From: a virus | Lineage: Duplodnaviria > Caudoviricetes | Strand: one strand, 5' to 3' | IMG/VR virus record: IMGVR_UViG_3300037424_002033 | Coordinates: 1-56,226 of that record | Length of the DNA stretch: 56,226 nt | Shown here: positions 2,339 to 20,664 of the stretch, in pieces | How positions within the stretch are numbered: position 1 is the stretch's first letter | How the letters are laid out: each line of letters starts with the position of its first letter | Made by a program: the position numbers and the translations under genes | Notes under the pieces: generated by a model | What the model was told of the DNA's origin: nothing | Database searches by the model: none | Seen by the model: only the letters and a program-made list of their open reading frames with translations

Positions 2339-2908
2339 TTGGCGTTTCGACTCGAAGAGGTCGGGAACGACGAATCCTCACAGCGGCGGATGCTTCAGCG
2401 CCTCGCGGAGTTGATCGCGAAGGGGTCGCGAGATCCGTCGATCGTTCGAGCCGCCCGTGCCATCACCGCCGACTGCGACGCGCGAGACGATCGCTGCGAA
2501 CTCGAAGCCATCTATGACGCCGTGAAGAACGGCACCGACGCCGTGCCCGGGATGCAGAACGGGCTGCGCTACGTCGCGGATCCGAAGACCACCGACTACT
2601 ACATCGGCGCGGCCCGCATCCTTCAGGAGTGCAAGGCCGGCGCCTGCGCGGGCGACTGCGACGAGGCAACCATCCTCGTCGCCTCGCTGGCGAGCGCGAT
2701 CGGCTTCAAGGCCGGTGCGCGTGCCTACGGTCCGAACCCCCGCGTCAACGAGTTCGTCCACGTCTACCCGGTCGCTGCGCTCCCGAAGAAGGCGCCGTGG
2801 CCGAAGGGCTACGCCGGGCACGGGCTCGACATCACCGTCCCCGAAGCATACGTCGGCTGGGAGCCGCCGAAGGGCCGCGTGCTCACCTATTGGGTCACTG
2901 AGGGTTGA
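2339..2908 (+). CDS. Transglutaminase-like (papain-fold) cysteine protease or cross-linking enzyme
   Basis: Cys-His-Asp triad motifs GDCDE, FVHVYP, GLDIT; TTG start. Confidence 0.85.
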   Translation: MAFRLEEVGNDESSQRRMLQRLAELIAKGSRDPSIVRAARAITADCDARDDRCELEAIYDAVKNGTDAVPGMQNGLRYVADPKTTDYYIGAARILQECKAGACAGDCDEATILVASLASAIGFKAGARAYGPNPRVNEFVHVYPVAALPKKAPWPKGYAGHGLDITVPEAYVGWEPPKGRVLTYWVTEG

Positions 2909-3468: not shown

Positions 3469-3816
3469 ATGTTCCGAGGCTACTCGAAGAAGAACCGGAA
3501 GCTCCGCCGCAAGAAGCGGAGCGCGAAGCGGTTCGGCGGCTTCGCCGGCACGAAGGCGATGCACCGCGCCGATGCCGCGCAGTACGCAAAGGTGGCTCGG
3601 AAAGCGGCGCAGGACGCGCGGAGCGCTGCGCGGTCTGGTAACTGCGAGCGCGCCGTTCACTACTTCGGCGTCGCCGCGTTCTACGGGGGCTTCGCCACTG
3701 GCAACCGGCGGTGGGCAGTAGGTGGCCGGCGGGAAGGAACTCGCGGTGGAAGCCGGATGGGATCCCGCATCGCTGCGTTGCAACGCACCGTCTCGAAGGC
3801 GTGCAAGATCCGCTGA
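3469..3816 (+). CDS. Basic Arg/Lys-rich putative core protein (paralog of 11457-11798)
   Basis: KKNRKLRRKKRSAKRFGG leader; conserved Cys pair. Confidence 0.7.
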   Translation: MFRGYSKKNRKLRRKKRSAKRFGGFAGTKAMHRADAAQYAKVARKAAQDARSAARSGNCERAVHYFGVAAFYGGFATGNRRWAVGGRREGTRGGSRMGSRIAALQRTVSKACKIR

Positions 3817-3875
3817 CAAGTTACGGCTCGCGGTGAGCCGACGATCGCCGTGAAGGGAAACGAGAGGAGTTCACA

Positions 3876-4076
3876 ATGCAGATCGCGGTGCTCGAAGGAT
3901 ACCGCGTCCCTGGAAGGAGCACGAAGATGGCACGTCGTCGTCGCCGCCGCAGCACTCGCAGGGTCGGTGGGAAGCGCGCTCTCCGCAAGCGCATGAAGGT
4001 GTGCGCGCGGAAGCACAAGGTCACGTCCAAGGGCTTCTGGGCGTGCGTCCGCAAGGGCCGCAGCCGCCGCCGGTAG
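3876..4076 (+). CDS. Protamine-like Arg-rich DNA-condensing protein
   Basis: MARRRRRRSTRR...C...C...RSRRR; AGGAG SD; alternative start at 3927. Confidence 0.7.
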   Translation: MQIAVLEGYRVPGRSTKMARRRRRRSTRRVGGKRALRKRMKVCARKHKVTSKGFWACVRKGRSRRR

Positions 4077-4091
4077 CACCTCGTCCGCATC

Positions 4092-4112
4092 GCCGGTAGC
4101 CGCCGCGCCGGT
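4092..4112 (+). promoter_or_regulatory. Conserved RNA hairpin motif, copy 1 (core GGTAGCCGCCGCGCC)
   Basis: CCGG-TAGCCGCCGCG-CCGG, upstream of 4155. Confidence 0.7.
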
Positions 4113-4154
4113 TCCACGCTGAGAGCGCCGTGAAGGCGCAAAGGAGTCGATCAA

Positions 4155-4685
4155 ATGGCAAGGCACCGCCGCCGCCGCCGGCACCGCCGTTTCGGAAGCT
4201 ACGTCACGACGTCGCTCGGCAGCCTCAAGCAGTTCAACCCCATGGGCCGTACGGTCCGCTCGACCGACGTGCTTGTCGGCGCCGGTCTCGGCGTCGCCGC
4301 TTCCACCTTCGTCAAGATGGGCATCGAGAAGGTCAACGAGATGCTCGGTGGGAAGATCCCGCTCTTCGTCATGCAGCAAGCGGGGCCGCTCTCCACCTTC
4401 CTCGCTGGCGTTCTGCTCTACCTCGGGCAGAAGAAGAGCGCTCGGGGCACCGGGCACTTCGTCGGCGCCTCCGCCGTCGCCGCCTCCGCCGTCTTCTGGG
4501 GCCTCCTGAAGCAGTACGGGCCCACGAAGTCGGACGGGACGCCGATGTTCTCGGACTACGTCCGGGTCCCGTCGCTCGGTCTGCTCACCGCCGATGCCGG
4601 CGGCCGGTCGCCGTTCGGTCTGCTCACCGCCGATGCCCCGATGTCGGGCTTCGGCGACGAGTTAGACATCTTCAACGCTGCCTGA
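4155..4685 (+). CDS. Putative major membrane/core protein: Arg-rich N-terminus, about 3 Gly/Ala TM helices, repeated C-terminal GLLTADA
   Basis: MARHRRRRRHRRFGS; hydrophobic helices; 23-bp internal repeat at 4576-4598 and 4615-4637; directly upstream of the putative MCP. Confidence 0.75.
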   Translation: MARHRRRRRHRRFGSYVTTSLGSLKQFNPMGRTVRSTDVLVGAGLGVAASTFVKMGIEKVNEMLGGKIPLFVMQQAGPLSTFLAGVLLYLGQKKSARGTGHFVGASAVAASAVFWGLLKQYGPTKSDGTPMFSDYVRVPSLGLLTADAGGRSPFGLLTADAPMSGFGDELDIFNAA

Positions 4686-4795: not shown

Positions 4796-5503
4796 ATGCC
4801 GAGCTTCATCTACCCCGCAGCGCAGCGCCCGAGCACGGCCGTGGCCGGTCTCGGCGATCAGCACGATGACAACGTCTACTCCGCGATCGTGGTCGCCCAC
4901 GGCGGAGTGGGCACGCAGAAGGCGTTCGTCGCCGGCCAGGGCTCGCCGATCCCGGCCCTCACCGGCACCGCCATCCCCGTCGCGAACGTGCCCAACACGT
5001 ACGTGAACTACACCCCGCTGACCACGGTCATCGAGCAGTCCGGCCAGTTGGGCAACTCGATCGGCGATGCGGAGATCCGCGCCATCGGCGTGACCTTCGA
5101 CCTCGCCGCGTACTCCTACGCGGCGGCGACGCCGCGCGTGTTCGGCGCGACGCCGTTCGAGATCGCCGACGTGCTCGGCAAGTGCCGCATGGAGGTGAAG
5201 GTCTCGAACAAGCGCCGGATCCAGGGTCCGGTGTGGTCGTACCCGAACCTCGGCGGCATGGCCGGCGGGCTCGCGACGACCGCGAACGCCGCGACGATCG
5301 GCGCCGTGAACAACGGCCCGTTTCCCACGGGTCGCCGGCTGAAGAGCCCGATCCTCATCGCTCGCAACGACGTGCTCGTCGCCGAGTTCACCGCGGACGC
5401 CGCCCTGGCGTTCTCGGACACCTCGTTCGCGACCACGCACGCCGGGCAGGCCACCCTCGTGTGGATCAACCTGATCGGCACGCTCCGCAGCGACGTGAGA
5501 TGA
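4796..5503 (+). CDS. Putative major capsid protein, single jelly-roll type (235 aa)
   Basis: Beta-strand-rich; very strong codon bias; GAGGAG SD; flanked by RNA structures; shares L.SPI.I and terminal I.L.G..R patterns with the downstream paralogs; fold is inferred. Confidence 0.6.
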   Translation: MPSFIYPAAQRPSTAVAGLGDQHDDNVYSAIVVAHGGVGTQKAFVAGQGSPIPALTGTAIPVANVPNTYVNYTPLTTVIEQSGQLGNSIGDAEIRAIGVTFDLAAYSYAAATPRVFGATPFEIADVLGKCRMEVKVSNKRRIQGPVWSYPNLGGMAGGLATTANAATIGAVNNGPFPTGRRLKSPILIARNDVLVAEFTADAALAFSDTSFATTHAGQATLVWINLIGTLRSDVR

Positions 5504-5506
5504 CAA

Positions 5507-5575
5507 GCCCGTAGAACGGGCCTCGTATTACCGTACTCCGTGGTAGGGTGTCCCATTCAGGCCCCTACCACGGAG
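5507..5575 (+). other. Structured intergenic RNA after the putative MCP (two hairpins)
   Basis: GCCCGT/ACGGGC (5507-5521) and a 13-bp perfect stem CTCCGTGGTAGGG/CCCTACCACGGAG (5536-5575); no U tail. Confidence 0.7.
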
Positions 5576-5598
5576 AACAGGATGAAAGAAGCAGACAA

Positions 5599-5617
5599 GA
5601 GGTAGCCGCCGCGCCTC
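5599..5617 (+). promoter_or_regulatory. Conserved RNA hairpin motif, copy 3, abutting the SD of 5629
   Basis: GAGG-TAGCCGCCGCG-CCTC followed by GGAGGTAGG. Confidence 0.7.
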
Positions 5618-5628
5618 GGAGGTAGGAA

Positions 5629-6642
5629 ATGAAGATCGTTCCGTCGCACTACGTTCCTGCGATCCCGGCGAGGTTCGCGCCGGCTCCGCCCCCTACCAAG
5701 CGCGCCGTGTTTCCTCCATCGCCAGTGTGGGGCGGCGGGCCCGGCCGTCCCGTGCTGCTTTACGACTCGGTGACGTTGCAGGCCGGTGCAGAGCAGCCGC
5801 TGAAGAACCGCGCCTTTCAGAACACGTTCAACGGATTCGTCGAGCTTCACTCGGCGATCTTCGCGGCCGAGCAGTTGACCGCTAACGTCTCCACGGCGCG
5901 TGCAACCTCCATCGCGACGACGGCCGTTCAGATCGGAGTGCGTCGCGCGGCGTCGAACAAGGTGCTCCGCATCACTGACGGCTTCATCCCGATGTGGATG
6001 CTCGCGCCGTCGGACAACCGACTTGCCTCCGCTGCCGGAGCGAATGGGCTCACGGCGCTGATCGACTGGAAGTTCGCGTCGCCGATCGTTCTCGGACCGA
6101 AGGATCAGATCGAAGTCTCAGTGCGCCACCTCTCGTACTTCACGAATAACACGCTGGCGCATGTTGCCTTCGGCGGAGAGGTCGTACCGAGATCCACGGC
6201 TGCTAGGCGGCTGCCGTACGCAACGGTATGGTCTGGGCACAACTTCGCGTATGCCGAGGATGGCTCCGACACGTCCGGTCCTGCCGCGCTATCGAACGAT
6301 CTGGAAAACAGGAAGTTGCACGTTGAGCGCATCATCGGGCGCTTCGTGACAGCGGCGCTTCAAGGAGCGAACACAATCGTCAACGACCTCGTCGATGGCT
6401 CGAATCAAATGGATCGGGCCACGCTTCGGATGCACCTTCAGCAAACCCCGATCATTCGGAGCTTCGCGAAGTGGATCACCGTGTTCGGAGCCAACGCGGC
6501 CCTCGAATGTGACTTCGACATGCTCGTGAACGACTTCATCACCGTCACCGTGGCGCATCCGCCGGGGCCGACACTCGCGACGCCGTTCACGTCGTTCACG
6601 GGGCAGCCCTTCGTTTCCATCGTCGGTTCCCGGGAGGAGTGA
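5629..6642 (+). CDS. Putative minor capsid protein, two tandem beta-sandwich domains (paralog 1)
   Basis: FQNTFN...ITDGFIP...FASPIVL...RRLPY...LSNDL...VSIVGSRE. Confidence 0.65.
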   Translation: MKIVPSHYVPAIPARFAPAPPPTKRAVFPPSPVWGGGPGRPVLLYDSVTLQAGAEQPLKNRAFQNTFNGFVELHSAIFAAEQLTANVSTARATSIATTAVQIGVRRAASNKVLRITDGFIPMWMLAPSDNRLASAAGANGLTALIDWKFASPIVLGPKDQIEVSVRHLSYFTNNTLAHVAFGGEVVPRSTAARRLPYATVWSGHNFAYAEDGSDTSGPAALSNDLENRKLHVERIIGRFVTAALQGANTIVNDLVDGSNQMDRATLRMHLQQTPIIRSFAKWITVFGANAALECDFDMLVNDFITVTVAHPPGPTLATPFTSFTGQPFVSIVGSREE

Positions 6643-6648
6643 AAAGCT

Positions 6649-7536
6649 ATGGGCTCCGAAGTCATCCTGTTTGGAACCACACCGCAACTGACGATCACGG
6701 CCGGCGTGCCCGGCCCCGATCAGCGGTTTCCCACCGAGGAACTCGTCAATCGCTTCAATAACGAGGCGATCGAGATCACCGAGTTGATCTTCGAGCTTCA
6801 CTCTTCGATCACCTCTTCCGGCAACGTCGGCGCCGCCGACTCTGTTAGGTCGGCACAGATTTCCCTTTCGATCGGGCGCTACTTGATCACTGACCGCAGC
6901 CCATTCGATACGATCGCGATCATTCGCGAGGCTACGGTCGGGAACGTCGTGGCGCTCGCCGCCGCAGCGTTGGACACCTTGCAGGTTCGTCGGTGGATCC
7001 TCGCTCGGCCCCTCATGGTTCACCCGCTCGAATCCTTCTCCGGCCTGTTGTCGTACGATGGCGCTGCCATCGCAGGCATCGCTACTGGTACCGTCGATCT
7101 TACCGTGGTGGCCCGCGGTCGGCGCGGCGGAAAGATCGATCGGACGCGATGCGTTCCCTACGCCTCCGGTTATCTTTTCAGAACGCCAACCGCGCCGGCT
7201 CCGAACCTCGTCTTTCAGAACACGTTCAACTCTCCACTCTTCATCCGGTCGATCAACACGACGCTCGGCTCGTCCATTCAGACGGCTCCCGGGCAGACTC
7301 CGCCGGTGATCACAGCACCGGGCGGGCTGGCGAACGTGGTGCGCCGGGACATGGTCCCCCAACTCACGACTCCGTGGGGACTCGCCGGGCAAAGAAAGTC
7401 GTTGGAGGTCGCGCATCAACTGAACCCGCGGGAGTTCTACCAGATCACTACGGCGCTCCGCCTCGACGATGCCATTCCATCGGCGCTCGTTGCCCCCGCG
7501 ATCACCATCTCCGGTTACCGTGAGGAGTCGCGATGA
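6649..7536 (+). CDS. Putative minor capsid protein, two tandem beta-sandwich domains (paralog 2)
   Basis: LVNRFN...ITDRSP...LARPLMV...RCVPY...FQNTFNSP...ITISGYRE. Confidence 0.65.
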   Translation: MGSEVILFGTTPQLTITAGVPGPDQRFPTEELVNRFNNEAIEITELIFELHSSITSSGNVGAADSVRSAQISLSIGRYLITDRSPFDTIAIIREATVGNVVALAAAALDTLQVRRWILARPLMVHPLESFSGLLSYDGAAIAGIATGTVDLTVVARGRRGGKIDRTRCVPYASGYLFRTPTAPAPNLVFQNTFNSPLFIRSINTTLGSSIQTAPGQTPPVITAPGGLANVVRRDMVPQLTTPWGLAGQRKSLEVAHQLNPREFYQITTALRLDDAIPSALVAPAITISGYREESR

Positions 7537-8450
7537 TCGCCACGCTGTCACCTCAACCGATCGTCCTGTCTGCCGCTCCGGTGCCGTACCTGACCACCGA
7601 CGCGGTGGGCACGGAGAAGAGCGCAAACCAGGGGGTTTGGAACTCGGAACCCACCGGGGTTCTCATTTCCGACATCTTCATCCAAGGGAACGCCGCGCTC
7701 GCTGAAGCGGGGGGCGGGAACGCGAACACCGGCGTCGGAATCCTCCTTCGATACCGTGGCGAGCCGATCACGAACGGCTACCTGCCGTTTTCGTCCGTGT
7801 GCTCGGTGCTGAACGCTGCCTTCGAGGATCCGGGTGGAGTCGTGGGTGGCATCACGATCCTTCGACTCGCAAAGCCGTTCTACTTGGAACCTGGCGGGAT
7901 CATCGACGTTGCGTACAGTAGCATCATGTTCCAGGCGAACGTCACGCTGCGCGCGTTCGCCGTCGGGATCCAGGCGTTGACCCCACCGAAGGAGCGATGG
8001 CTTCCGTACCTGACGTCGTACCTCGGTCCGACCTACATCGGAACTTCCAACGCAGTGATCGAGAATCAGTCGGTTCCGACCGATCTCGGTAATCCGTTCG
8101 GTGATCCGATCTTCGTCGATCAGTTGATCGGACGGGTTTACGTTGGCATCGATCCAAACAATGGAGTGGCCCCGACCAATTTCCGCGACACCGGCTCCCC
8201 GAGCGCGGCGTACGCATTCAGAACTCGACTGACCGACCACAAGGGCGCCGCGTGGATCCCCGTTCCCACGCCGATCCCGCTGGCGTTCGATACCGTGACC
8301 CGTGCGTGGCCGGTGAAAACGAACATGGACGCCAAGGGATTCCTCACGGCCGATCTCTCCGGTGTAGCGACGTTCACGAGCGTCACACCCGGATTCGTTC
8401 TGTACGCTCGGGCTGGCATCGGTCTCGTCGGCTATCGGAGGATCGGATGA
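7533..8450 (+). CDS. Putative minor capsid protein, two tandem beta-sandwich domains (paralog 3)
   Basis: VWNSEP...ITNGYLP...LAKPFYL...RWLPY...LGNPFGDP...IGLVGYRR. Confidence 0.65.
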   Translation: MIATLSPQPIVLSAAPVPYLTTDAVGTEKSANQGVWNSEPTGVLISDIFIQGNAALAEAGGGNANTGVGILLRYRGEPITNGYLPFSSVCSVLNAAFEDPGGVVGGITILRLAKPFYLEPGGIIDVAYSSIMFQANVTLRAFAVGIQALTPPKERWLPYLTSYLGPTYIGTSNAVIENQSVPTDLGNPFGDPIFVDQLIGRVYVGIDPNNGVAPTNFRDTGSPSAAYAFRTRLTDHKGAAWIPVPTPIPLAFDTVTRAWPVKTNMDAKGFLTADLSGVATFTSVTPGFVLYARAGIGLVGYRRIG

Positions 8451-9271
8451 ATATCGCCACCCAACTCGTCGAGACGTTCACGTATCAGAGCTATTTCGAC
8501 GACGTGCTTCTTCAGACGGCGATCCTCGCACAGCCCCCTGGAAGTGCGATCGTCGAGAGCACGTTGAAGCGCCCGCAAATCCCCGGGGTGGGTGTCGCGC
8601 TCCACCCGTCGTCGGAGTGCCCGATCGCGATTCGCTTCTTCGGAAAGCACGACTCCGGAACGATCATTCTCACCCCCGGCATGAAGGTCATGACGGGAGC
8701 GTTCGATCGCTTCGAGTGGGGACTGCCCTACGGGTGGCTCGGCGGCGGTACGGCTGTGCTCTACGCGCTGCATGACGACGCGGAGCTTTCCTTCCAGACC
8801 TCGTCACCGGACGTGCTCTTTCACAGGACGCGGATTCAGATCGTGATCGGCGCGGCGCCGGACCTCGCGACGGCTCCGGTCAACTGGCCGGTTGCCTTTC
8901 CATGGGCGAATGCCTTCTCGGGCGTGGCCCCACAGTCGGGCAACGACGTGCTCGTGGTGCAACCGACGCACACTCTCTTCCGACTGAGGGTGTCGCAAGC
9001 GGCTCCTGTGTCTCTCATGCTTGCCTGGCGTGGCACGCAGGACTTCGACACCGACCTCGCTGGGGTTCCGGCGCTGGTAGACTACACCGTCACGGAGCTT
9101 TCATTCCCGGGAGTTCCGGCGACGAGCCCGACGGTGGCGTTCCCCGTCGCGTGGATGGACGATCCTCTCGTTCGCCTCGGTGGTCGAGCTTCGATCGTGA
9201 ACATCTACGATCCGGCTGGAACGCTCGCCGAAGACTTCGTCGATGTCCTGCGCTACGGCAGGTTCGCGTAG
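8447..9271 (+). CDS. Beta-rich virion protein (penton or vertex candidate)
   Basis: ATGA overlap with the upstream gene; beta-rich, 274 aa. Confidence 0.65.
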   Translation: MNIATQLVETFTYQSYFDDVLLQTAILAQPPGSAIVESTLKRPQIPGVGVALHPSSECPIAIRFFGKHDSGTIILTPGMKVMTGAFDRFEWGLPYGWLGGGTAVLYALHDDAELSFQTSSPDVLFHRTRIQIVIGAAPDLATAPVNWPVAFPWANAFSGVAPQSGNDVLVVQPTHTLFRLRVSQAAPVSLMLAWRGTQDFDTDLAGVPALVDYTVTELSFPGVPATSPTVAFPVAWMDDPLVRLGGRASIVNIYDPAGTLAEDFVDVLRYGRFA

Positions 9272-9280
9272 GAGGGTACC

Positions 9281-9739
9281 ATGATCATCCGCGAACCAGC
9301 CTTCGGCGAGATCCTCACCCCAGGGACGATCCTTGGGCACGCGAACGTCGTCGATTCCGATGTTCTGCGCGTCAGCACAGCGATCATGGGATCGAGCGTG
9401 GACGACGGGTTCAAGTCGGGGTGGATGAGCTTCGCCGAGGCGTGGGGGCAGTTCTACGACTCGCTTCAGGGAGTGACCGGCTGGGCGCAACGCCTCTGGG
9501 CTGGCACCGACGATCAGATCGACGACTACCAGACCCGGCTCGTTTCCTGGGAGCAGTCGTTCCGAGCGGCCGGCGGGCAGGTGCCAGGCGGCCCCGTGGC
9601 GCCACCTTCCCCTGCCTTCTCGCTCGAAGGCATCCTCGGGCAAGCAAAGTGGATCGTGATCGGCGGCGCCGCGCTCTACGCGCTCGTCACCTTCGGCCCG
9701 GCGCTCTCACGGGCTTTCTCGTCGTCGCGGAGGAAGTGA
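9281..9739 (+). CDS. Virion membrane protein (helical ectodomain plus C-terminal TM)
   Basis: MIIREPAFGE leader; WIVIGGAALYALVTFG TM segment. Confidence 0.75.
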   Translation: MIIREPAFGEILTPGTILGHANVVDSDVLRVSTAIMGSSVDDGFKSGWMSFAEAWGQFYDSLQGVTGWAQRLWAGTDDQIDDYQTRLVSWEQSFRAAGGQVPGGPVAPPSPAFSLEGILGQAKWIVIGGAALYALVTFGPALSRAFSSSRRK

Positions 9740-9741
9740 TC

Positions 9742-10080
9742 ATGGCCCGTCGTCGCCGTCGTAGGTTCGGAGAGGTGAAGCTGAAGAAGCGCGGCGGGAA
9801 GATCAGCCGCCTCGTCTACCATCACAACCTCCCGTCGCGGCGCGTCGGGATCAAGGTCTTCGTCTCGCGGTACGCTGCGGACACGGCCGGATATCAGGCG
9901 TGGGCGTGCCCGGCGTCTTCGGGAAACCGCGCGATCCGGGCGTCCGGCGAATCGAACGCCTACCAGCGGATCGGCGGCAGGTGCGGCCCGTACGGCTACG
10001 GCCGGACGCCGACGCGGGCGATCGAGAAGGCACTCATCGCGCTCGGCAAGTCCGGCGCTCTTCGGAAGGGCGGGAGGTAG
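9742..10080 (+). CDS. Arg-rich basic protein, GRTPT family paralog 1
   Basis: MARRRRRRFGE...YQAWAC...RCG...GRTPTRAI. Confidence 0.7.
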   Translation: MARRRRRRFGEVKLKKRGGKISRLVYHHNLPSRRVGIKVFVSRYAADTAGYQAWACPASSGNRAIRASGESNAYQRIGGRCGPYGYGRTPTRAIEKALIALGKSGALRKGGR

Positions 10081-10083
10081 GTC

Positions 10084-10386
10084 ATGGCGAGACGACGCAA
10101 GCGGAGCCGGTTCGCGGAGCTTCCCCACCGGAAGTGGTACCGCGGAGCAGTCTCTTCGGCTGCACACTGGAAGAAGATGTCAGCACAGATCCGCGTGGCC
10201 CGCGTCGGCGACACTGGCGAGCGGAAGACACAGCCGTACCGCGCGATCGTGTGCGTCGGCGGATCGCGGATGAAGGGCTTCTTCTACCCACGTCTCGCGG
10301 CGAACCGCTGCGGCGAGGCCCGCGGCCGGACCCCGACGAAGGCGATCCGCGGCGCGTTCCGCGATCTCGGCAAGTCGTTCAAGTAG
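10084..10386 (+). CDS. Arg-rich basic protein, GRTPT family paralog 2
   Basis: MARRRKRSRFAE...YRAIVC...RCG...GRTPTKAI. Confidence 0.7.
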   Translation: MARRRKRSRFAELPHRKWYRGAVSSAAHWKKMSAQIRVARVGDTGERKTQPYRAIVCVGGSRMKGFFYPRLAANRCGEARGRTPTKAIRGAFRDLGKSFK

Positions 10387-10395
10387 GAGGCGATC

Positions 10396-10635
10396 ATGGC
10401 ACGTCACAGGAAGAGCCGGCACAGGCGGAGCGGACGCGGAGGCAAGGGCTTCCGGCTGCCCCTCATCGGCAAGCTCACGCTCGGCAAGCTCGGCGTCGGC
10501 ATCGCCGCATGGTGGTTCCTCGTCCGGCCGGCGATGGCGTCGGCGCCCGAGTCGGAGGCGATCCCGTCGAACTTCGTCTCCATCGAGCCGGTAGGCCCGT
10601 CGGTGCAGTCCGAGCCGATCACCCCGAGCATGTGA
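10396..10635 (+). CDS. Small membrane protein with Arg-rich N-terminus
   Basis: RLPLIGKLT...IAAWWFLVRP, similar to 11282-11452. Confidence 0.7.
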   Translation: MARHRKSRHRRSGRGGKGFRLPLIGKLTLGKLGVGIAAWWFLVRPAMASAPESEAIPSNFVSIEPVGPSVQSEPITPSM

Positions 10636-10645
10636 GGGCTTGGCC

Positions 10646-10948
10646 ATGGCACGTCGCAAGCGATTTGGCGAAGGAGATTGGCTCTCCGAAGATGATGCGA
10701 TCGACGAGGAGTCGAACGAGCCGACGGAAGACGATCTCATCACCGACGATCATATCCACTTCTATTCGAGCGGAAAGCGGGCCCTGACGCTTTCCGAGAC
10801 GACGACCGGAGTGGACACGGCTTCGATGTGGAAGGCGATCGACGCATGGATGGAGAAGTCGAACTACTACCCGAACGTCTGGTTCATCTCGGACCACGGG
10901 AACGCACATCTCATGGAGCGGCCGAAGCGCCGCCGGAGGCGGCGGTGA
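10646..10948 (+). CDS. Protein with basic termini and an acidic core
   Basis: MARRKRFGE...DDAIDEE...YYPNVWFISDHGN...KRRRRRR. Confidence 0.75.
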   Translation: MARRKRFGEGDWLSEDDAIDEESNEPTEDDLITDDHIHFYSSGKRALTLSETTTGVDTASMWKAIDAWMEKSNYYPNVWFISDHGNAHLMERPKRRRRRR

Positions 10949-11157
10949 GTGGCCCGACGTTCCTCGAAATCCTCGGCAAGCGGCTCGCCGAGCAAGGGGC
11001 CGGTGATCGACGCGGAGTGGACGGAGGTTCCGGGCACCGCATCGTCGCCTCCGGTCCCCGGCGCCTCGCTTCGCCTGCATCGGGTCGCCGTGATCCCGCG
11101 GCGCCGTGCAACTGCGACGGAAAGCGGAAGGTGCCCGGGGTGCGGAAGGTCGGGTGA
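10945..11157 (+). CDS. Small basic protein overlapping 10949-11260 in another frame
   Basis: GTGA-coupled start; good codon usage; PCNCDGKRK near the end. Confidence 0.45.
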   Translation: MSGPTFLEILGKRLAEQGAGDRRGVDGGSGHRIVASGPRRLASPASGRRDPAAPCNCDGKRKVPGVRKVG

Positions 11158-11260
11158 GCTAGTGGCCGTCAAGATTTCGTTCGTGACCGCTCACGTCTGC
11201 CCCAGGTGCGCGGTGTTCGGAAAGCTGGGGGCACACGCCCTCGGCGCACTTCTCCGCTAG
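10949..11260 (+). CDS. Zn-finger-like protein (CxxC...CxxC)
   Basis: MARR start (GTG); CPGC and CPRC motifs. Confidence 0.5.
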   Translation: MARRSSKSSASGSPSKGPVIDAEWTEVPGTASSPPVPGASLRLHRVAVIPRRRATATESGRCPGCGRSGELVAVKISFVTAHVCPRCAVFGKLGAHALGALLR

Positions 11261-11281
11261 CGCGGAGAGAAGGAGCACAAG

Positions 11282-11452
11282 ATGAAGATGGGATTCCTCT
11301 CGAAGCCGCTCGTGAAGCTGCCGATCGTCGGCAAGGTGACGCCGCTCCTCCTCGGCGTGGCGTTCGCCGGCTGGTACTTCTTCATCAAGAAGCCGGCGGC
11401 GGCGGCGCCGACGGTGGCCGGCTTCGGCTTCTCGAACTACTTCCGGGGGTGA
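11282..11452 (+). CDS. Small membrane protein (56 aa, not in the ORF track)
   Basis: MKMGFLSKPLVKLPIVGKVTPLLLGVAFAGWYFFIKK...AGFGF; AAGGAG SD. Confidence 0.7.
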   Translation: MKMGFLSKPLVKLPIVGKVTPLLLGVAFAGWYFFIKKPAAAAPTVAGFGFSNYFRG

Positions 11453-11456
11453 CGTC

Positions 11457-11798
11457 ATGGCCCGTCGTCGGCACAAGCGTTTCGGTGATCCCACTGCGGT
11501 CCACGCGGAACGGGCGAAGTTTCACCTCCGTGAGATCAAGCGGCTCACCAGAACGGCGCGCAGTTACCTCGCCTCGCCCCCCGACTGCGAGAGTGCGGGC
11601 GGCTTGATCGTCGCGCTCGCGCAGATGCAGGGGTCGTACTTGATCGACCGCACGGCCGGAGGGTTTCGCCGCGCTGGGGGGTACGGCGGCGCTGGCCCCC
11701 GTGGCGTCATTCGCAAGTTCCTCGCGCTTTGCACGGTGAAGCCGCGGAGCGCGTCGGCGGCTCGCAAGATGCGCGCTGTGTGGCGCCGTGGGGGATGA
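11457..11798 (+). CDS. Basic putative core protein (paralog of 3469-3816)
   Basis: MARRRHKRFGD; H...AR...C..A...C pattern. Confidence 0.7.
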   Translation: MARRRHKRFGDPTAVHAERAKFHLREIKRLTRTARSYLASPPDCESAGGLIVALAQMQGSYLIDRTAGGFRRAGGYGGAGPRGVIRKFLALCTVKPRSASAARKMRAVWRRGG

Positions 11799-11801
11799 GC
11801 C

Positions 11802-11990
11802 ATGTTCGTCCGCGAGCCCACCTTCGGGAAGCATGATCCGCGCTACGGTCAGATCGACGCCGGCACCTCGACGGCGATCGTGGCCGCGGGCGACGCTGAG
11901 AGCATCTCGCCGCTCACCTACTTCTTCACCGCCGTCGCGGCGGGCGTGACCGTCTTCTTCATCACGAAGTGGCTCGGCGGGAGGAAGTGA
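11802..11990 (+). CDS. Small membrane protein
   Basis: MFVREPTFGK leader; C-terminal TM segment. Confidence 0.7.
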   Translation: MFVREPTFGKHDPRYGQIDAGTSTAIVAAGDAESISPLTYFFTAVAAGVTVFFITKWLGGRK

Positions 11991-12217
11991 TGAGTCGGTA
12001 CGCCTACAGCGTCGCGACGAGCCGTTCGCCGACGGCGTTCAAGTTCCGGCTGCGCACCGATGCGTGTCGCTTCGCGAAGTCGTGGGGCAAGCTCCGTGGC
12101 AACGGCCACGCGCAGGTGTTCAAGCTCGACGCGCACGGCAAGCCGCTCCGCGAGGAGCATTGCACCGGCGGCGTCTTCGGTGGCTACAAGCGGCGCTCGC
12201 GTCGCAGGAGGAAGTGA
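11990..12217 (+). CDS. Small basic protein
   Basis: TGATG coupling; two Cys; ends FGGYKRRSRRRRK. Confidence 0.65.
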   Translation: MSRYAYSVATSRSPTAFKFRLRTDACRFAKSWGKLRGNGHAQVFKLDAHGKPLREEHCTGGVFGGYKRRSRRRRK

Positions 12218-12725: not shown

Positions 12726-12980
12726 ATGCGCGCACTCGTTCTCATATTCCTCGTGGCAAGCGCAGCGTGCGCCGAGACGCGCGTCATGTGGAAGAACGAG
12801 CGGGCTGCTTACATCGAGCACGACGTCGCGGCCGAGGCGTGCGAGATCGAGTGGATCATGGCGCCGCAGATCCGACTCGCACGGAAGAGCTACCGAGGCA
12901 TCTTCATCGAGTGCATGGCGAGCTACGGCTGGCGTGCTGAAGTCTGGGAGATCGCTGTGACCACCCCGGAGAACCCATGA
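12726..12980 (+). CDS. Putative lipoprotein or secreted protein
   Basis: MRALVLIFLVASAAC; Cys pair. Confidence 0.55.
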   Translation: MRALVLIFLVASAACAETRVMWKNERAAYIEHDVAAEACEIEWIMAPQIRLARKSYRGIFIECMASYGWRAEVWEIAVTTPENP

Positions 12981-14980
12981 TCTCGCTCCTCGTCGCTCTC
13001 CTCGTCGCGCAGACCTCGCTCGAAACGACGGGACCGATCGGTGCCACGAAGGCGCCGGTGCTCTACGCGCCGTTCGACGTCATCGGCACCTTCGCCTCGG
13101 GCTTCGCACTGCCGACCGGGCAGGTGGTCACGGTCGTTCGGGCAGGCACCGCGACAGCCACGTACATCGACGCGAACGGGCTCGTGGCGAACGCCGCCGC
13201 GAACACGGCACGAGTCGAGAAGGCCGGGCTCCTCGTCGAGCAGGCCCGCACGAACTCGGCGCTTCAGTCGGAGACGACGTGCGTCGCGAACGCGGTGCAG
13301 GCGCCATGGACCCTCGTGGGCGCTCCGACGTGCGTCACGAACGCGGCGGTTGCACCGGATGCGGCCGGTTCGACGACGGCCGATCGCTGGACGTCGGCGG
13401 TGAACACGAACCTCATCACGCAGACGGCCACGACTGCTTCCACTTCCGTGTTCGCGGTTTCACAATGGTTCAACCGAGCCGTGACCGGAATCGTGACGCT
13501 GCAAGGCACCTGCGGAGCGGCAACGGCTACGGCTTGCACTTGCTGGACAAGCGACGGGCGAGCTTGCACCGCCGCTGCCGCGACCACCACCTGCACGGTC
13601 AAGATGACGGCAAACACGACGTGGTCGCGGCTCATCGGCAACTACACCTGCAACGCCGCGACCACCGCTCCGGTGATCGCATTCGCGCCGGGCGAGCTTG
13701 CCGTTTCGACCGGCACCGCCGACGTGTGGGGAGCGCAGCTTGAAGGCGGCAATTCTAGCAAGCCGTCCGTGTTCGCTACGAGCTATATGGCGACCGTTGC
13801 AGCAAGCGTGACACGCAACGGCGACACGTACACTACGACATATCCGATCGCCGCTGCGAACAATGCCGCGTGGTGCGCAACTGGCGTGTGGACACCTGAA
13901 TCCGGCCGCGCGTGGAATCAAGGTGTGAACGTCGAACGGCTCATGTCCGCGTATGTTACAAACGACGGAGCGGCAAACTCGTGGCGAACGTACATCGTGT
14001 CTTCGACTGCTCTTCAGTTCGACACGATCGACGGAACGACTACCACGAGATCCCGCGTGTCTTCGCTTCATGCACTCCCGAACGGATCCCCCGGATCTTG
14101 GACGTTCACGAACTCGTCCGGGGTGCCTGGGACGCCTTCGTTCCTACTCAACGGACAAACTGCTAACGGGGCTCTTTCGGGTGCGGGCACCGGATCCGTA
14201 GCTCCGACCACGCTCGCGTTTGGGATGACCGGAGCCGCCACAGAGCAGTTCGGTGGGAACATCCGCGACTTCCGCATGTATGCGAACACGACGCTCTGCG
14301 GTGAGGGATCGATCTTCCCAGCGCTCTTCGACGACGACGTGAACACTGTCGCGCACGTCGTCTTCCGGCACGGCGCTCTCGTCGATCTGAAGTCAAATGC
14401 GTGGGTGATGCCAGTCAACCCGGTTCCGCAGGTCACATCGGGCGCGTTCTCGATTCCTCCGAGCGGAAATCTATCCAATCCAACGACGTACTACACACTC
14501 GGGTCCGGCGCGGATGTGCTCGATTTCCCCGGTGGCGTGTTCACGATCGCGATCGTTGCCACCCCGGCGAACTACGCGGCTCCGACGAGTGTGCTCCTCG
14601 CGAATTCGAACAATTCTACGGACGGCTGGTTCACGTCCATGACTGTCACAGGCAACGGACGGTTCGTGACTCGCCAGCCGGCTGCGTCGGATCTCAGCAC
14701 TGCCAACATCGCTGCGCTGAACGTTCCCTTCGTGCTGTGCGCTGGCCGCGACGGAACCAACTCGATGGTGAAGCTGAACTTCGGGACGATCGTCTCGGCG
14801 GCAACGACATACGTGGCGCCGGTCACCAGAGTCGTATTTCTCGGCAACCTCAATGGTAGTTTCCCCTTCCCTGGCGTAGTCCACGAAATATTAGCCACGA
14901 CGACTGCGCCGTCGGATGCGGCGTGCATTGCGCTCGCCAACACCGCTTTCGCCCGCATGGGCATCACGGTCCCGCCGTGA
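12977..14980 (+). CDS. Large spike / receptor-binding protein with lectin (LamG/ConA-like) domains
   Basis: Signal-like N-terminus; LLVEQARTN, WGAQLE..ATSY..TR motifs typical of phage spike and fibre proteins; Thr/Ala/Cys-rich. Confidence 0.75.
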   Translation: MISLLVALLVAQTSLETTGPIGATKAPVLYAPFDVIGTFASGFALPTGQVVTVVRAGTATATYIDANGLVANAAANTARVEKAGLLVEQARTNSALQSETTCVANAVQAPWTLVGAPTCVTNAAVAPDAAGSTTADRWTSAVNTNLITQTATTASTSVFAVSQWFNRAVTGIVTLQGTCGAATATACTCWTSDGRACTAAAATTTCTVKMTANTTWSRLIGNYTCNAATTAPVIAFAPGELAVSTGTADVWGAQLEGGNSSKPSVFATSYMATVAASVTRNGDTYTTTYPIAAANNAAWCATGVWTPESGRAWNQGVNVERLMSAYVTNDGAANSWRTYIVSSTALQFDTIDGTTTTRSRVSSLHALPNGSPGSWTFTNSSGVPGTPSFLLNGQTANGALSGAGTGSVAPTTLAFGMTGAATEQFGGNIRDFRMYANTTLCGEGSIFPALFDDDVNTVAHVVFRHGALVDLKSNAWVMPVNPVPQVTSGAFSIPPSGNLSNPTTYYTLGSGADVLDFPGGVFTIAIVATPANYAAPTSVLLANSNNSTDGWFTSMTVTGNGRFVTRQPAASDLSTANIAALNVPFVLCAGRDGTNSMVKLNFGTIVSAATTYVAPVTRVVFLGNLNGSFPFPGVVHEILATTTAPSDAACIALANTAFARMGITVPP

Positions 14981-19434: not shown

Positions 19435-20664
19435 GTGGCAATCTATCCGTTCTCGCCGACTGACATGCGGTACCCGATCAAGGCATACATCGACGATGTC
19501 TCCGCTGGGGGTCCGGTCGGCGCGTTCGGGATCCCGCTCGTCGCCACCGAGTCTCCGATCCCGCGGATGCAGCTTTCGTTTCCGTACAATATCAACACCG
19601 CCAACGTCACGGCGATCAACGCCAACGGCGGCACCGTCACGCAGGCGAACGGGAAGGCTATCCTTCAGACCTCGGCCGCGAACAATGGCTCGTCGATCCT
19701 GCGCAGCCGCTTCGCCGCGCGCTACACACCCGGCCAGGGGCAAGCGATCAAGTTCACCGCCATCTTCACGCCCGGAGTGGCGAACTCGCGGCAAGAGATC
19801 GGCGTAGGCGACGCCACCGACGGCTTCTTCTTCGGCTACGTCGGCGCCGTCTTCGGCATCATCCGCCGCCGCGGAGGAGTGGACGACTTCATCCCGCAAT
19901 CGACGTGGAACGGCACCTTCAACGGGGCGTCGAGCACGCCCGTCAACTTCAACCCGGCCGATGGCTTCGGCAACGTCTACACGATCCGATATCAATGGCT
20001 TGGGTTCGGTGACATCTACTTCTTCATCGAAGATCAAGAGACGGGCTTCTCGTTCCTCGTTCACACGATCCGGTATGCCAGCACGCAGGCGATCCCGTCG
20101 ATCCTGAATCCGTCGCTGCCGCTGTGGGCCCGCGCGGTGAACAGCGGCAACGCGACGAACATCACGCTTCAGACGCCGTCGATGGGTGCCTACTGTGAAG
20201 GCCCGTACAACCCTTACGGCCCCAACTTCGCGGTTGGCAACCGGAAGACGGCGATCACCACCGAGACGAGCATCTTCACCATTCGGAACAATCTCACCGT
20301 CTTCGGTGGCCCGGCGAATAATAACCGATCGAACCTGCGCATCGACACGATCTCAGGATCGCTCTCCGGTGCCGCCGACTCGCAGGTCCGCGCGGTGCTG
20401 AACGCAACGCTCGGCGGAGCCCCCGTGTTCAACGACATCGACGTGAACACGTCGATCGTCGCGATCGACGTGGCCGGTACGACCGTGACCGGCGGGCGCG
20501 AGATCCCGATTCGCATCCCCTCCACCGGGAACGCGCAATTCGCGATCGATATCTCGGACATCGAGGAGCGGCTCGCGCCGGGTGACACGCTCACCTTTGC
20601 GGGATCGAGCTTCGCCGGGGCGGTGGTGGTCAACGGGGGTTTCGGTTGGACGGAAGAGGTGTGA
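19435..20664 (+). CDS. Beta-rich structural protein (lectin-like spike or vertex)
   Basis: RYTPGQG and NVYTIRYQWLGFG motifs; Thr/Asn/Gly-rich. Confidence 0.7.
   Translation: MAIYPFSPTDMRYPIKAYIDDVSAGGPVGAFGIPLVATESPIPRMQLSFPYNINTANVTAINANGGTVTQANGKAILQTSAANNGSSILRSRFAARYTPGQGQAIKFTAIFTPGVANSRQEIGVGDATDGFFFGYVGAVFGIIRRRGGVDDFIPQSTWNGTFNGASSTPVNFNPADGFGNVYTIRYQWLGFGDIYFFIEDQETGFSFLVHTIRYASTQAIPSILNPSLPLWARAVNSGNATNITLQTPSMGAYCEGPYNPYGPNFAVGNRKTAITTETSIFTIRNNLTVFGGPANNNRSNLRIDTISGSLSGAADSQVRAVLNATLGGAPVFNDIDVNTSIVAIDVAGTTVTGGREIPIRIPSTGNAQFAIDISDIEERLAPGDTLTFAGSSFAGAVVVNGGFGWTEEV

What the first reader, a model, noticed from the sequence alone, without database searches (positions are those of the whole stretch)
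4796..9271. One single-domain and three double-domain paralogs of the same beta-sandwich: a mixed single/double jelly-roll capsid set
Seen: 5629, 6649 and 7533 align by eye (F.N.F..., ITD/NG..P, [F/L]A.P..[L/V].P, linker R.[L/V]PY, second-domain N....[I/V]..I, terminal I..VG.RE/R). Each is an internal duplication; for example FQNTFN occurs in domain 1 of 5629 and domain 2 of 6649. The highly codon-biased 4796 gene carries a single copy (RLKSPILI...INLIGTLR). Known: Varidnaviria use either single vertical jelly-roll MCPs (sphaerolipoviruses, portogloboviruses) or double jelly-roll MCPs (PRD1, PM2). Inference: a single-jelly-roll major capsid protein alongside several fused double-domain paralogs, which could be an intermediate state or a new capsid architecture.
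Basis: partly seen in the sequence, partly recalled or inferred. Interest (0 to 1): 0.85.

Follow-up and report, generated by a model that had tools for sequence, protein, structure and literature searches.

The report
Triple double-jelly-roll capsid gene cassette
A 56-kb virus genome from a metagenome encodes three old copies of the double-barrel coat protein known from tailless viruses such as PRD1, next to a single-barrel protein, and has no recognisable tailed-phage or DNA-packaging-motor genes, which points to an undescribed lineage of large tailless viruses.

Summary
Genes 5629, 6649 and 7533 are full-length paralogs (E 5e-81, 1e-20 and 2e-52 against a profile that excludes the latter two). 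Each is an internal duplication (HHalign of the halves: 95 %, E 2.7e-8). The AlphaFold model of 5629 (pLDDT 86) matches double jelly-roll (DJR) capsid proteins such as PRD1 P3, STIV and PM2 P2 (Foldseek E about 4e-9). Gene 4796 is a single domain with only weak single jelly-roll (SJR) matches. Its homology to the DJR halves is not shown.

The SJR-DJR-DJR-DJR order is present in all 13 intact related loci examined, and the triplication predates their divergence. A three-chain model supports co-assembly (0.62 against 0.04 for the best control). Five related records, two of them closed genomes of 58 and 75 kb, gave no match above cut-off for terminase, portal, HK97 capsid, FtsK or A32 ATPase families.

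An SJR protein beside DJR proteins is normal for DJR viruses, so no "intermediate state" is needed. The new features are three conserved DJR paralogs, genomes of 56-75 kb, no packaging ATPase, and DJR halves still alike in sequence. The SJR gene appears to be the most highly expressed, so which protein builds the facets remains open.

The parts
4155..4685 (+). Conserved upstream gene with an arginine-rich N-terminus (MARHRRRRRHRRFG) followed by a predicted membrane helix. Likely an internal or membrane virion protein.
   Evidence: ORF and hydropathy scan. Homologs lie just upstream of the SJR gene in G004 and L020. No Pfam, PHROG or NCBIfam family.
4796..5503 (+). Single jelly-roll-like capsid protein, 235 aa. 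The best conserved and most codon-biased gene of the cassette.
   Evidence: 60 homologs at 36-100 % identity, 215-243 aa. AF2 pLDDT 76.8 with about 11 strands. Weak Foldseek matches to SJR capsid proteins. GC3 0.95. No internal repeat. No longer fused forms found.
5507..5575 (+). Two GC-rich hairpins directly after the SJR gene. Putative terminator or attenuator, or mRNA stabiliser.
   Evidence: MFE -54.1 kcal/mol, z -3.70, 1 of 200 shuffles as stable. The matching position in 18 records has z <= -3 in 13, several with U-tracts. The consensus terminator scan did not list it, because there is no T-run.
5629..6642 (+). DJR paralog 1, 337 aa. Residues 1-38 are proline-rich with low model confidence (pLDDT 54-70), followed by two 8-9-stranded jelly rolls joined at RRLPY (193-197).
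   Evidence: AF2 pLDDT 86.3, pTM 0.83. Foldseek to DJR MCPs at E 3.8e-9. Halves homologous.
6649..7536 (+). DJR paralog 2, 295 aa, the most divergent of the three.
   Evidence: Full-length match to the family profile at E 1.3e-20. Groups with the position-2 genes of three other genomes.
7533..8450 (+). DJR paralog 3, 305 aa. Its start overlaps the stop of paralog 2.
   Evidence: E 2.3e-52 to the family profile. The position-3 clade has support 98/99. In the three-chain model its C-domain (223-263) contacts the N-domain of paralog 1.
8447..9271 (+). Fifth cassette gene, 274 aa, fold unknown. GGAGGA lies upstream and its ATG overlaps the stop of paralog 3.
   Evidence: 38-43 % identical homologs at the same position in G001, G002 and G004, and in 8 of 9 intact metagenome loci. 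No HHalign link to the SJR or DJR families. No family hits.
9281..9739 (+). Small protein with a C-terminal membrane helix that closes the coupled gene run.
   Evidence: Hydropathy scan. Weak homolog in G002.
12977..14980 (+). Spike or fibre protein, the probable host-recognition appendage.
   Evidence: NCBIfam NF048003 GTA head spike fibre domain, 48.7 bits against a cut-off of 36. PHROG 5939 'tail protein' at 1.5e-17.

Best explanation
Genes 4796-9271 are the capsid-shell cassette of a tailless, probably membrane-containing, temperate dsDNA virus from a lineage not found in the literature and databases searched here. The host is probably bacterial (inferred).

The three tandem genes encode anciently separated double jelly-roll (DJR) proteins. 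They most likely assemble into pseudo-hexagonal trimers, plausibly one chain of each paralog, that tile the facets as PRD1 P3 or PM2 P2 do. Gene 4796 encodes the single jelly-roll (SJR) partner. By analogy with other DJR viruses it would sit at the fivefold vertices. Gene 8447 is a further conserved shell or vertex component.

DNA would be enclosed without a terminase or FtsK-type motor, perhaps condensed by the many arginine-rich small proteins encoded nearby.

Shown: paralogy, internal duplication, DJR fold, conserved gene order, and no match to the tailed-phage and packaging-ATPase families tested. Inferred: capsomer composition, the position of each protein in the shell, the internal membrane, and the packaging mode.
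For: - DJR fold. The AF2 model of 5629 has pLDDT 86.3. Its best Foldseek matches are PR772/PRD1 P3, STIV MCP, phiCjT23, PBCV-1 Vp54, SGIV and PM2 P2 at E 4e-9 to 4e-7, probability 1.00.
- One family. All three genes match one profile over their full length, and the halves are homologous.
- Conserved set. G000, G001, G002 and G004 each carry exactly three DJR genes directly after the SJR gene. Of 10 metagenome loci with at least 3.4 kb downstream, 9 do the same. The tenth, L020, runs into cellular-type genes 0.4 kb after the SJR gene.
- Old triplication. Position-1, -2 and -3 genes each fall on one side of a branch (support 56/8, 89/95 and 98/99). The tree needs the minimum of 2 label changes, and 0 of 200 shuffles did as well.
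- Coupled translation. The gaps between the genes are 6, -4 and -4 nt.
- Co-assembly model. For the three chains the score was 0.62, with the best of 3 controls at 0.04. That mark was reached by 58 of 80 solved complexes and 2 of 110 mismatched pairs. The runs agree in at least 45 % of contacts, and the partner's pLDDT is at least 82. The confident interface joins the N-domain of paralog 1 to the C-domain of paralog 3, as expected in a DJR ring. The pass may reflect likeness to solved DJR trimers, and homotrimers were not tested.
- Not a tailed phage. No match over cut-off to Terminase_6N, TerL_ATPase, Phage_capsid or Phage_portal in 5 records, two of them closed by terminal repeats. Pfam or PHROG scans of 40 ORFs of the window and 10 of G004, covering all window ORFs of 350 aa or more, show no terminase, portal or HK97 capsid. 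Only two fibre- or spike-type families shared with tailed phages were hit.
- Virion context. At least 11 ORFs in 1-22 kb have a predicted membrane helix. There is also a head-spike-fibre domain protein, and an SLT lysin and a peptidoglycan-binding protein.
Against: - Expression signals do not fit a 60-copy vertex protein. The SJR gene has higher GC3 than all three DJR genes in 11 of 13 records. It is followed by strong hairpins in 13 of 18 records. It is also much better conserved (40-77 % against 22-44 % identity).
- No vertex protein appears among the 50 best PDB matches of 4796. The best by probability is SPV1 VP4, a facet protein.
- The DJR trio shares low GC3 and fast divergence with the fibre gene 12977. 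That pattern would suit surface or host-range proteins.
- TM-scores to DJR MCPs are only 0.36-0.51.
- A GH172 enzyme (8ic8_H) matches nearly as well, at E 3.6e-8.
- No packaging ATPase was found, which is a hallmark of most DJR viruses.
- No virion, expression or proteome data exist. The run-search tool could not be reached.
Confidence: 0.5

Rival explanations
1. Mixed lattice. The SJR protein 4796 is the principal shell subunit, forming hexameric capsomers as SPV1 VP4 does. The DJR trimer, possibly together with 8447, occupies special positions such as peripentonal sites or the vertex and spike base.
For: - 4796 has the highest GC3 of the cassette in 11 of 13 records.
- Terminator-like hairpins follow it directly in 13 of 18 records, several with U-tracts. 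The reading of this as an abundant separate transcript is an inference.
- Its length is uniform (215-243 aa) and no fused forms were found.
- The highest Foldseek probabilities named here (0.97-0.99) are for the facet protein SPV1 VP4, and SH1 and P23-77 VP17 are also listed.
- The DJR genes evolve as fast as the fibre gene and share its low GC3.
Against: - I know of no virus that mixes SJR hexamers and DJR trimers in one lattice (recalled), and my four literature searches found none.
- The structural matches of 4796 are weak: 0 of the counted PDB matches and 1 of the BFVD matches at E <= 0.001.
- Codon bias and hairpins are indirect proxies for protein abundance.
Confidence: 0.3
2. The DJR trio is not part of the lattice. 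It would be a virion-surface or secreted trimer that binds or cleaves host glycans, like the cellular DJR family DUF2961/GH172. The shell would then be built by 4796 and other proteins.
For: - The GH172 arabinofuranosidase 8ic8_H is among the best Foldseek matches, at E 3.6e-8.
- The halves are still alike in sequence. For structure, PMC8812541 reports this as a trait of DUF2961 rather than of viral MCPs (passages read).
- The trio diverges fast and has low GC3, like the fibre gene.
Against: - No Pfam match to DUF2961 at E <= 1 for any of the three proteins. The six-frame search also found nothing, but its control genomes gave no match either, so that search is not informative.
- 18 of the 20 matches printed are DJR capsid proteins and a 19th is the PBCV-1 MCP fitted into the Sputnik capsid map, with better TM-scores (0.38-0.44 against 0.36).
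- The genes lie inside a translationally coupled run directly after the SJR capsid-like gene.
- Three conserved non-redundant paralogs fit a hetero-oligomeric structural unit.
- PMC8812541 found no DUF2961 members in viruses (passage read).
Confidence: 0.12
3. The element is a tailed phage whose HK97 capsid protein, portal and terminase are too divergent to detect. The jelly-roll proteins would then be tail, baseplate or decoration proteins.
For: - Automatic labels of related clusters say Uroviricota.
- 12977 matches PHROG 'tail protein' families.
- 19435 belongs to a 'virion structural protein' family that also occurs in cyanomyophages.
Against: - No match over cut-off to two TerL families, Phage_portal or Phage_capsid in 5 records, two of them closed genomes, while control genomes did match.
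- Every window ORF of 350 aa or more is assigned or unsuitable. 16267 is a proline-repeat membrane protein, 19435 is a beta-rich adhesin-like protein, and 448 is low-complexity and coiled-coil-like.
- The only P-loop proteins shared by the three full-length genomes are an SMC/ABC-like and a Sak4-like protein.
- Synteny shows that no large part of the genome is missing.
Confidence: 0.03

Closest known systems
Tectiviridae and Corticoviridae (PRD1 P3 with P31; PM2 P2 with P1)
   Same: DJR protein fold (Foldseek E 3.8e-9 for PR772/PRD1 P3 and 3.8e-7 for PM2 P2). An adjacent SJR-like gene. Many small membrane proteins and a lytic transglycosylase in the virion module.
   Different: These viruses have one MCP gene, not three. 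Their genomes are 10-15 kb (recalled), and Yutin 2018 gives 7-18 kb for prokaryotic DJR viruses (passage read), against 56-75 kb here. They have an FtsK-type packaging ATPase, which was not found here. There is no sequence-level membership. This virus has a family A polymerase fused to a UDG domain and an integrase.
FLiP/phiCjT23 and the metagenomic 'Odin group' of DJR viruses
   Same: DJR MCP without a detectable packaging ATPase (PMC5894146 and PMC8812541, passages read). phiCjT23 is among the best structural matches (E 8.4e-9, TMt 0.51).
   Different: Those have small genomes (the papers link ATPase-free encapsidation to small genomes) and a single MCP gene. Here there are three paralogs and 56-75 kb of dsDNA.
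Giant viruses with MCP paralogs (PBCV-1 capsomer variants)
   Same: Several DJR paralogs in one virion, including heterotrimeric capsomers (bioRxiv 10.1101/2025.01.23.634589, two passages read). PBCV-1 Vp54 is a structural match at E 2e-8.
   Different: Those are eukaryotic viruses of over 300 kb (recalled) in which one homotrimeric type dominates. Here all three paralogs are kept in every intact relative examined, and none is obviously the main one.
Vertical SJR capsid viruses (SPV1 of Portogloboviridae; SH1, P23-77 of Helvetiavirae)
   Same: The most probable structural matches of 4796 include SPV1 VP4, SH1 and P23-77 VP17. SPV1 also lacks a packaging ATPase (PMC8812541, passage read).
   Different: Those viruses have no DJR proteins. 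Helvetiaviruses have two SJR MCP genes. The matches here are weak (E >= 9e-4, TM <= 0.44).
Cellular DUF2961/GH172 DJR proteins
   Same: DJR fold and trimer. The two halves are still similar to each other. Foldseek E 3.6e-8 to 8ic8_H.
   Different: No Pfam DUF2961 match. The genes lie in a viral capsid-gene context.

Membership tests
[quoted passage not shown] | Two consecutive eight-stranded jelly rolls in one chain | tested here: met
   The AF2 model of 5629 has 8 and 9 strands on either side of residue 193. Foldseek probability is 1.00 to PRD1, STIV, PM2 and PBCV-1 MCPs. 6649 and 7533 align to the same profile over their full length but were not folded on their own.
[quoted passage not shown] | Trimer with pseudo-hexagonal shape | tested here: inconclusive
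   The three-chain model scored 0.62, best of 3 controls 0.04. That mark was reached by 58 of 80 solved complexes and 2 of 110 mismatched pairs. Runs agree in at least 45 % of contacts, and the partner's pLDDT is at least 82. The interface runs from an N-domain to a C-domain. This is a model only, and homotrimers were not tested.
[quoted passage not shown] | Barrels stand vertical in an icosahedral lattice | not testable with these tools
   Needs a virion structure.
[quoted passage not shown] | Sequence membership in a curated MCP family (Pfam P3, P2, Capsid_NCLDV and others) | tested here: not met
   No relevant Pfam, PHROG or NCBIfam match (6649 and 7533 were not scanned in NCBIfam). Profile search against PDB sequences gives E >= 0.19.
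DJR virus morphogenesis module | SJR vertex (penton) protein encoded with the MCP | tested here: inconclusive
   4796 is adjacent and SJR-like, but the matches are weak and no penton protein is among the 50 best matches. Its oligomeric state was not modelled.
DJR virus morphogenesis module | FtsK-HerA or A32-type packaging ATPase | tested here: not met
   PF01580 gives only P-loop-sized matches below cut-off, and PF04665 gives none, in 5 records. A Walker A scan finds only SMC/ABC-like and Sak4-like proteins shared by the three full-length genomes.
Caudoviricetes (tailed phages) | HK97-fold capsid protein, portal and large terminase | tested here: not met
   PF05065, PF04860, PF03237 and PF03354 give no match over cut-off in 5 records, while control genomes matched. 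Only four families were searched in six frames, so more distant forms are not excluded. Pfam or PHROG scans of the large ORFs were also negative.
Vertical SJR MCPs (Helvetiavirae, Portogloboviridae) | SJR fold like VP4/VP7, VP16/VP17 or SPV1 VP4 | tested here: inconclusive
   For the 4796 model: SPV1 6oj0_A probability 0.97, TMt 0.44, E 1.4e-2. BFVD SPV1 VP4 probability 0.99, E 2.7e-3. SH1 and P23-77 VP17 at E about 4e-2.
Vertical SJR MCPs (Helvetiavirae) | Two adjacent SJR MCP genes that form heterodimers | tested here: not met
   Only one homolog of 4796 per genome. The neighbouring genes are DJR proteins.
DUF2961 / GH172 | Match to PF11175 | tested here: not met
   hmmscan of the three proteins at E <= 1 lists no DUF2961. 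The six-frame search was silent, but so were its controls.

The most novel reading that the evidence does not exclude
This lineage may build its shell from both kinds of subunit. An abundant SJR protein would form the bulk capsomers, and an obligate heterotrimer of three DJR paralogs would fill defined lattice or vertex positions. The DJR genes may also have arisen within the lineage by duplication and fusion of an SJR gene: their halves are still 95 %-probability homologs, and the SJR family shows a marginal hit to the N-half. That would make it a living example of the SJR-to-DJR transition, in a virus that encloses 56-75 kb of DNA without any packaging motor.
Probability: 0.2. Interest if true: 0.92.

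Novelty: new variant of a known kind. Interest (0 to 1): 0.76.

Why it matters
Known prokaryotic DJR viruses are small (7-18 kb in the 2018 census, PMC5894146). They carry one MCP gene and usually an FtsK-type packaging ATPase. ATPase-free encapsidation has been linked to small genomes.

Here a widespread family (564 clusters at 50 % identity at E <= 1e-3) has three anciently fixed DJR paralogs in genomes of 56-75 kb, with no detectable motor.

If the paralogs form heterotrimers, this would be the first obligate heterotrimeric DJR capsomer I know of in a prokaryotic virus. That statement is from recall, and my four literature searches found none.

The detectable sequence similarity of the two barrels, and the highly expressed SJR neighbour, bear on a debated question. 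That question is whether DJR capsid proteins arose by fusion of SJR genes or from cellular DUF2961-like proteins (PMC8812541). The cassette makes it testable with structures and virion proteomics.

Tried and rejected
- Single-sequence searches of IMG/VR with 5629 and 4796 found no relatives. The profile of the 4796 family found 4.
- The genome collection scan with the 4796 profile found nothing, so no host genome was identified.
- Scans with the DJR alignments A3 and A5 were not possible because no stretch is conserved enough.
- tblastn of 4796 and 5629 against 50,697 GenBank phage records gave no match.
- Sequence searches against PDB chains found nothing significant: with profiles of both families E >= 0.19, and with 2339 alone E >= 0.22.
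- The idea that 4796 is a compact DJR like PM2 P2 came from Atlas leads to P2/P3 families at scores of 0.76-0.78. I rejected it: the model has about 11 strands and the halves show no self-similarity.
- 8447 as a fourth paralog: no HHalign signal (probability <= 0.3 %).
- 44326 as the packaging ATPase: rejected, it is Sak4-like. 16267 as terminase: rejected, it is a proline-repeat protein.
- CheckV's 75 % completeness suggested a missing capsid module. I rejected that. In both closed relatives the genes at the window's end (55890) and start (448) are neighbours, about 0.3 kb apart in G004 and 0.8 kb in G002.
- No longer fused forms of 4796 were found. The tool itself rates that as weak evidence.
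- No tRNA genes in the window.
- The expression test through public runs could not be made because the tool was unreachable five times.

Full report
**What the window is.**
- The window is a whole IMG/VR virus record of 56,226 bp with 66 % G+C.
- The + strand from 1 to about 22 kb holds virion and lysis genes.
- The rest holds an integrase, a family A DNA polymerase fused to a UDG domain, an SNF2 helicase, a DnaB-like ATPase, methyltransferases, a Sak4-like annealing protein, an exonuclease and a topoisomerase-like protein.
- CheckV rates the record 75 % complete.
- Two relatives are closed by terminal repeats: G004 (57,910 bp, 127-bp repeat) and G002 (75,450 bp, 123-bp repeat).
- In both, the homologs of the window's last genes (53847, 54814, 55890) are followed within 0.3-0.8 kb by the homolog of its first large gene, 448.
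- The window is therefore essentially full length and merely opened at another point. No capsid module is hidden in a missing part.

**The observation.**
- The genes at 5629, 6649 and 7533 are adjacent or overlap by four bases, as does the next gene at 8447.
- By BLASTP alone only 5629 against 7533 is convincing (E 2.8e-4 over 323 residues). 5629 against 6649 gives E 0.18.
- An exhaustive profile search found a large family: 564 cluster representatives at E <= 1e-3, 250 at <= 1e-10 and 23 at <= 1e-30.
- I aligned 75 of the 150 listed representatives with the three window proteins (A3). A profile without the window's 6649 and 7533 matched 5629, 7533 and 6649 over their full length at E 5e-81, 2e-52 and 1e-20.
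- I cut that alignment at the RRLPY linker and compared the halves. This gave 95.2 % probability, E 2.7e-8 and 112 columns. The score was 51.4, against at most 19.2 in 30 column shuffles and 9.8 for the reversed half.
- Paralogy and internal duplication are therefore real.

**The fold.**
- With A3 as input, AlphaFold2 gave a confident model of 5629 (pLDDT 86.3, pTM 0.83). Residues 1-38 have low confidence (pLDDT 54-70), and there are 8 plus 9 strands on either side of residue 193.
- Foldseek against PDB returned 300 matches at E <= 1e-3 of the best 500 counted.
- The list is led by PR772/PRD1 P3 (3.8e-9), STIV MCP, phiCjT23, PBCV-1 Vp54, SGIV MCP and PM2 P2, all at probability 1.00 with TM-scores of 0.36-0.51.
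- The cellular DJR enzyme 8ic8_H (GH172) also scored 3.6e-8.

**Gene 4796.**
- It has 60 homologs at 36-100 % identity and 215-243 aa. I used 31 of them for alignment A2.
- The model (pLDDT 76.8) is one beta-rich domain of about 11 strands.
- Its matches are weak: 0 at E <= 0.001 in PDB and 1 in BFVD.
- Nearly all of them are single jelly-roll capsid proteins. The highest probabilities are for SPV1 VP4 (0.97 and 0.99), and SH1 and P23-77 VP17 are also listed.
- It has no internal repeat and no longer fused relatives were found.
- Its family shows only a marginal HHalign hit to the N-half of the DJR family (probability 5 %, score 22.3 against at most 18.3 in 30 shuffles) and none to the C-half.
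- "Same fold class" is plausible. "Paralog" is not shown.

**Conservation of the set.**
- In G000, G001, G002 and G004 the homolog of 4796 is followed by exactly three DJR genes.
- A scan of metagenome contigs gave 32 loci. Ten of them have at least 3.4 kb downstream of the SJR gene.
- Nine of those ten have exactly three tandem DJR genes, and in eight a homolog of 8447 follows.
- The tenth, L020, has no DJR gene. After one further small gene it continues into a polytopic membrane protein, PPK2 and an oxidoreductase, so it looks like a prophage remnant.
- Shorter loci show as many DJR genes as fit, except the shortest.
- A tree of the 12 DJR proteins from the four records puts each gene position on one side of a branch (support 56/8, 89/95 and 98/99). 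It needs the minimum of two label changes, and 0 of 200 shuffles did as well.
- The triplication therefore predates genomes whose orthologs are now only 22-28 % identical, and none of the three has been lost.
- 8447 is conserved at 38-43 % identity, but no link to either jelly-roll family was detected.

**Co-assembly.**
- A model of the three chains together (5629 residues 39-337, 6649 and 7533, each with its own alignment) passed the tool's mark.
- The score was 0.62, with the best of 3 controls at 0.04. That mark was reached by 58 of 80 solved complexes and 2 of 110 mismatched pairs.
- The runs agree in at least 45 % of contacts, and the partner's pLDDT is at least 82.
- The confident contacts join the N-barrel of paralog 1 to the C-barrel of paralog 3, which is the geometry of a DJR ring.
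- The pass may come from likeness to solved homotrimers, and homotrimers were not tested. It supports "these chains can share a capsomer" and nothing more.

**Not a tailed phage, and no packaging motor.**
- Six-frame searches of five related records gave no match over cut-off for Terminase_6N, TerL_ATPase, Phage_capsid or Phage_portal, while control genomes matched.
- FtsK_SpoIIIE gave only short P-loop matches below cut-off, and Pox_A32 gave none.
- Pfam or PHROG scans of 40 ORFs of the window (every ORF of 350 aa or more among them) and of ten further ORFs of the closed genome G004 showed no terminase, portal or HK97 capsid. Only two fibre- or spike-type families shared with tailed phages were hit.
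- The remaining large conserved virion genes do not look like a terminase or portal. 16267 is a proline-repeat protein with a C-terminal membrane helix. 19435 is a beta-rich protein of a "virion structural protein" family shared with cyanomyophages. 448 is rich in low-complexity and coiled-coil-like sequence.
- The only Walker A proteins shared by the three full-length genomes are an SMC/ABC-like protein (33151) and the Sak4-like protein.
- 12977 carries a GTA head-spike-fibre domain above the curated cut-off.
- At least 11 ORFs in the virion module have a predicted membrane helix, and several small proteins begin with runs of arginine.
- Together this resembles membrane-containing tailless viruses, but that reading is an inference.

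**Which protein builds the facets?**
- By precedent, DJR trimers tile the facets and an SJR protein sits at the vertices.
- Two findings argue against a mere 60-copy role for 4796:
  - Its GC3 is 0.95 against 0.76-0.78 for the DJR genes and 8447. The SJR gene exceeds all three DJR genes in 11 of 13 records; the exceptions are L027 and L029.
  - Strong hairpins follow it directly (window 5507-5575, z -3.7). At the same place in 18 records z is <= -3 in 13 and weaker in 5 (L022, L023, L024, L027, L028). Several have U-tracts like intrinsic terminators (which used mononucleotide shuffles, 50 each).
- 4796 is also far better conserved than the DJR genes.
- I therefore put the classical assignment at about 0.5 and a mixed lattice with an abundant SJR subunit at about 0.3.

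**Comparison with what is known.**
- Yutin et al. 2018 (PMC5894146, passages read) found prokaryotic DJR viruses at 7-18 kb, most with a packaging ATPase. The "Odin group" and FLiP lack one, which the authors tie to small genomes.
- Krupovic et al. 2022 (PMC8812541, passages read) report that FLiP and SPV1 lack packaging ATPases. They also report that the two barrels stay similar in cellular DUF2961 but diverge in viral MCPs, and that independent duplication of an SJR remains possible.
- A PBCV-1 preprint (two passages read) states that heterotrimeric capsomers exist among six variants in that giant virus.
- Four full-text searches listed no paper on prokaryotic viruses with three DJR paralogs or with genomes of this size. 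I read only listings and the passages named, and supplements were closed.
- No GenBank phage record matched 4796 or 5629.

**Verdict.**
- "SJR plus DJR" is ordinary for this virus kingdom, so no intermediate state is needed.
- The new features are three anciently fixed DJR paralogs, a 56-75 kb temperate genome, no packaging ATPase, barrels still alike in sequence, and an SJR gene that appears to be the most highly expressed.
- This is a new variant of a known kind, with a real chance of an unusual capsid architecture.

Noticed in passing
window 3469-4685 and 9742-12217: A run of small proteins with very arginine-rich ends. Several start MARRR...RFG (4155, 9742, 10084, 11457) and others are basic at either end (3469, 3876, 10396, 10640, 11969). 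They may condense DNA or carry a shared targeting or processing signal. A strict pattern found 4 in G000, 1 in G002 and 0 in G004.
   Followed up: partly
window 16267-17823: A 518-aa protein made almost wholly of proline-rich repeats (PPKQIAPVI and similar) with a C-terminal membrane helix. Only its tail is conserved in G004.
   Followed up: partly
window 2339-2908: A 189-aa protein conserved at 45-53 % identity in G002 and G004, with no Pfam, PHROG, NCBIfam or PDB sequence match. It lies in the virion module and its function is open.
   Followed up: partly
window 36540-40097 (-): A family A DNA polymerase domain fused in one 1185-aa ORF to an N-terminal uracil-DNA glycosylase superfamily domain.
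   Followed up: no
L020 3797-12531: Homologs of 4155 and 4796 and one small basic gene are followed by a polytopic membrane protein, PPK2 and an oxidoreductase, with no DJR genes. This is probably a decayed prophage next to host genes, which fits the integrases in G000 and G004.
   Followed up: partly
window 19435-20664: A beta-rich 409-aa protein, among the best conserved virion genes (48-54 % identity). It has relatives annotated 'virion structural protein' in about 200-kb Synechococcus phages and in a 485-kb uncultured phage record. This is a module shared with tailed phages.
   Followed up: partly
G004 and G002 ends: The terminal repeats are 127 and 123 bp. 127 equals a common assembler word length (recalled), so at least G004 may be a circular or permuted genome rather than one with true terminal repeats.
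   Followed up: no
window 33151-35094 (-): An SMC/ABC-like P-loop protein of 647 aa (AAA_23; PHROG 1499, function unknown). It is one of only two ATPases shared by the three full-length genomes and would be worth testing as an unconventional packaging or condensation factor.
   Followed up: partly
L010 14-811 (G004): A classical AAA+ ATPase (Pfam AAA, 7.7e-32) at the start of G004, with no counterpart in the window.
   Followed up: no
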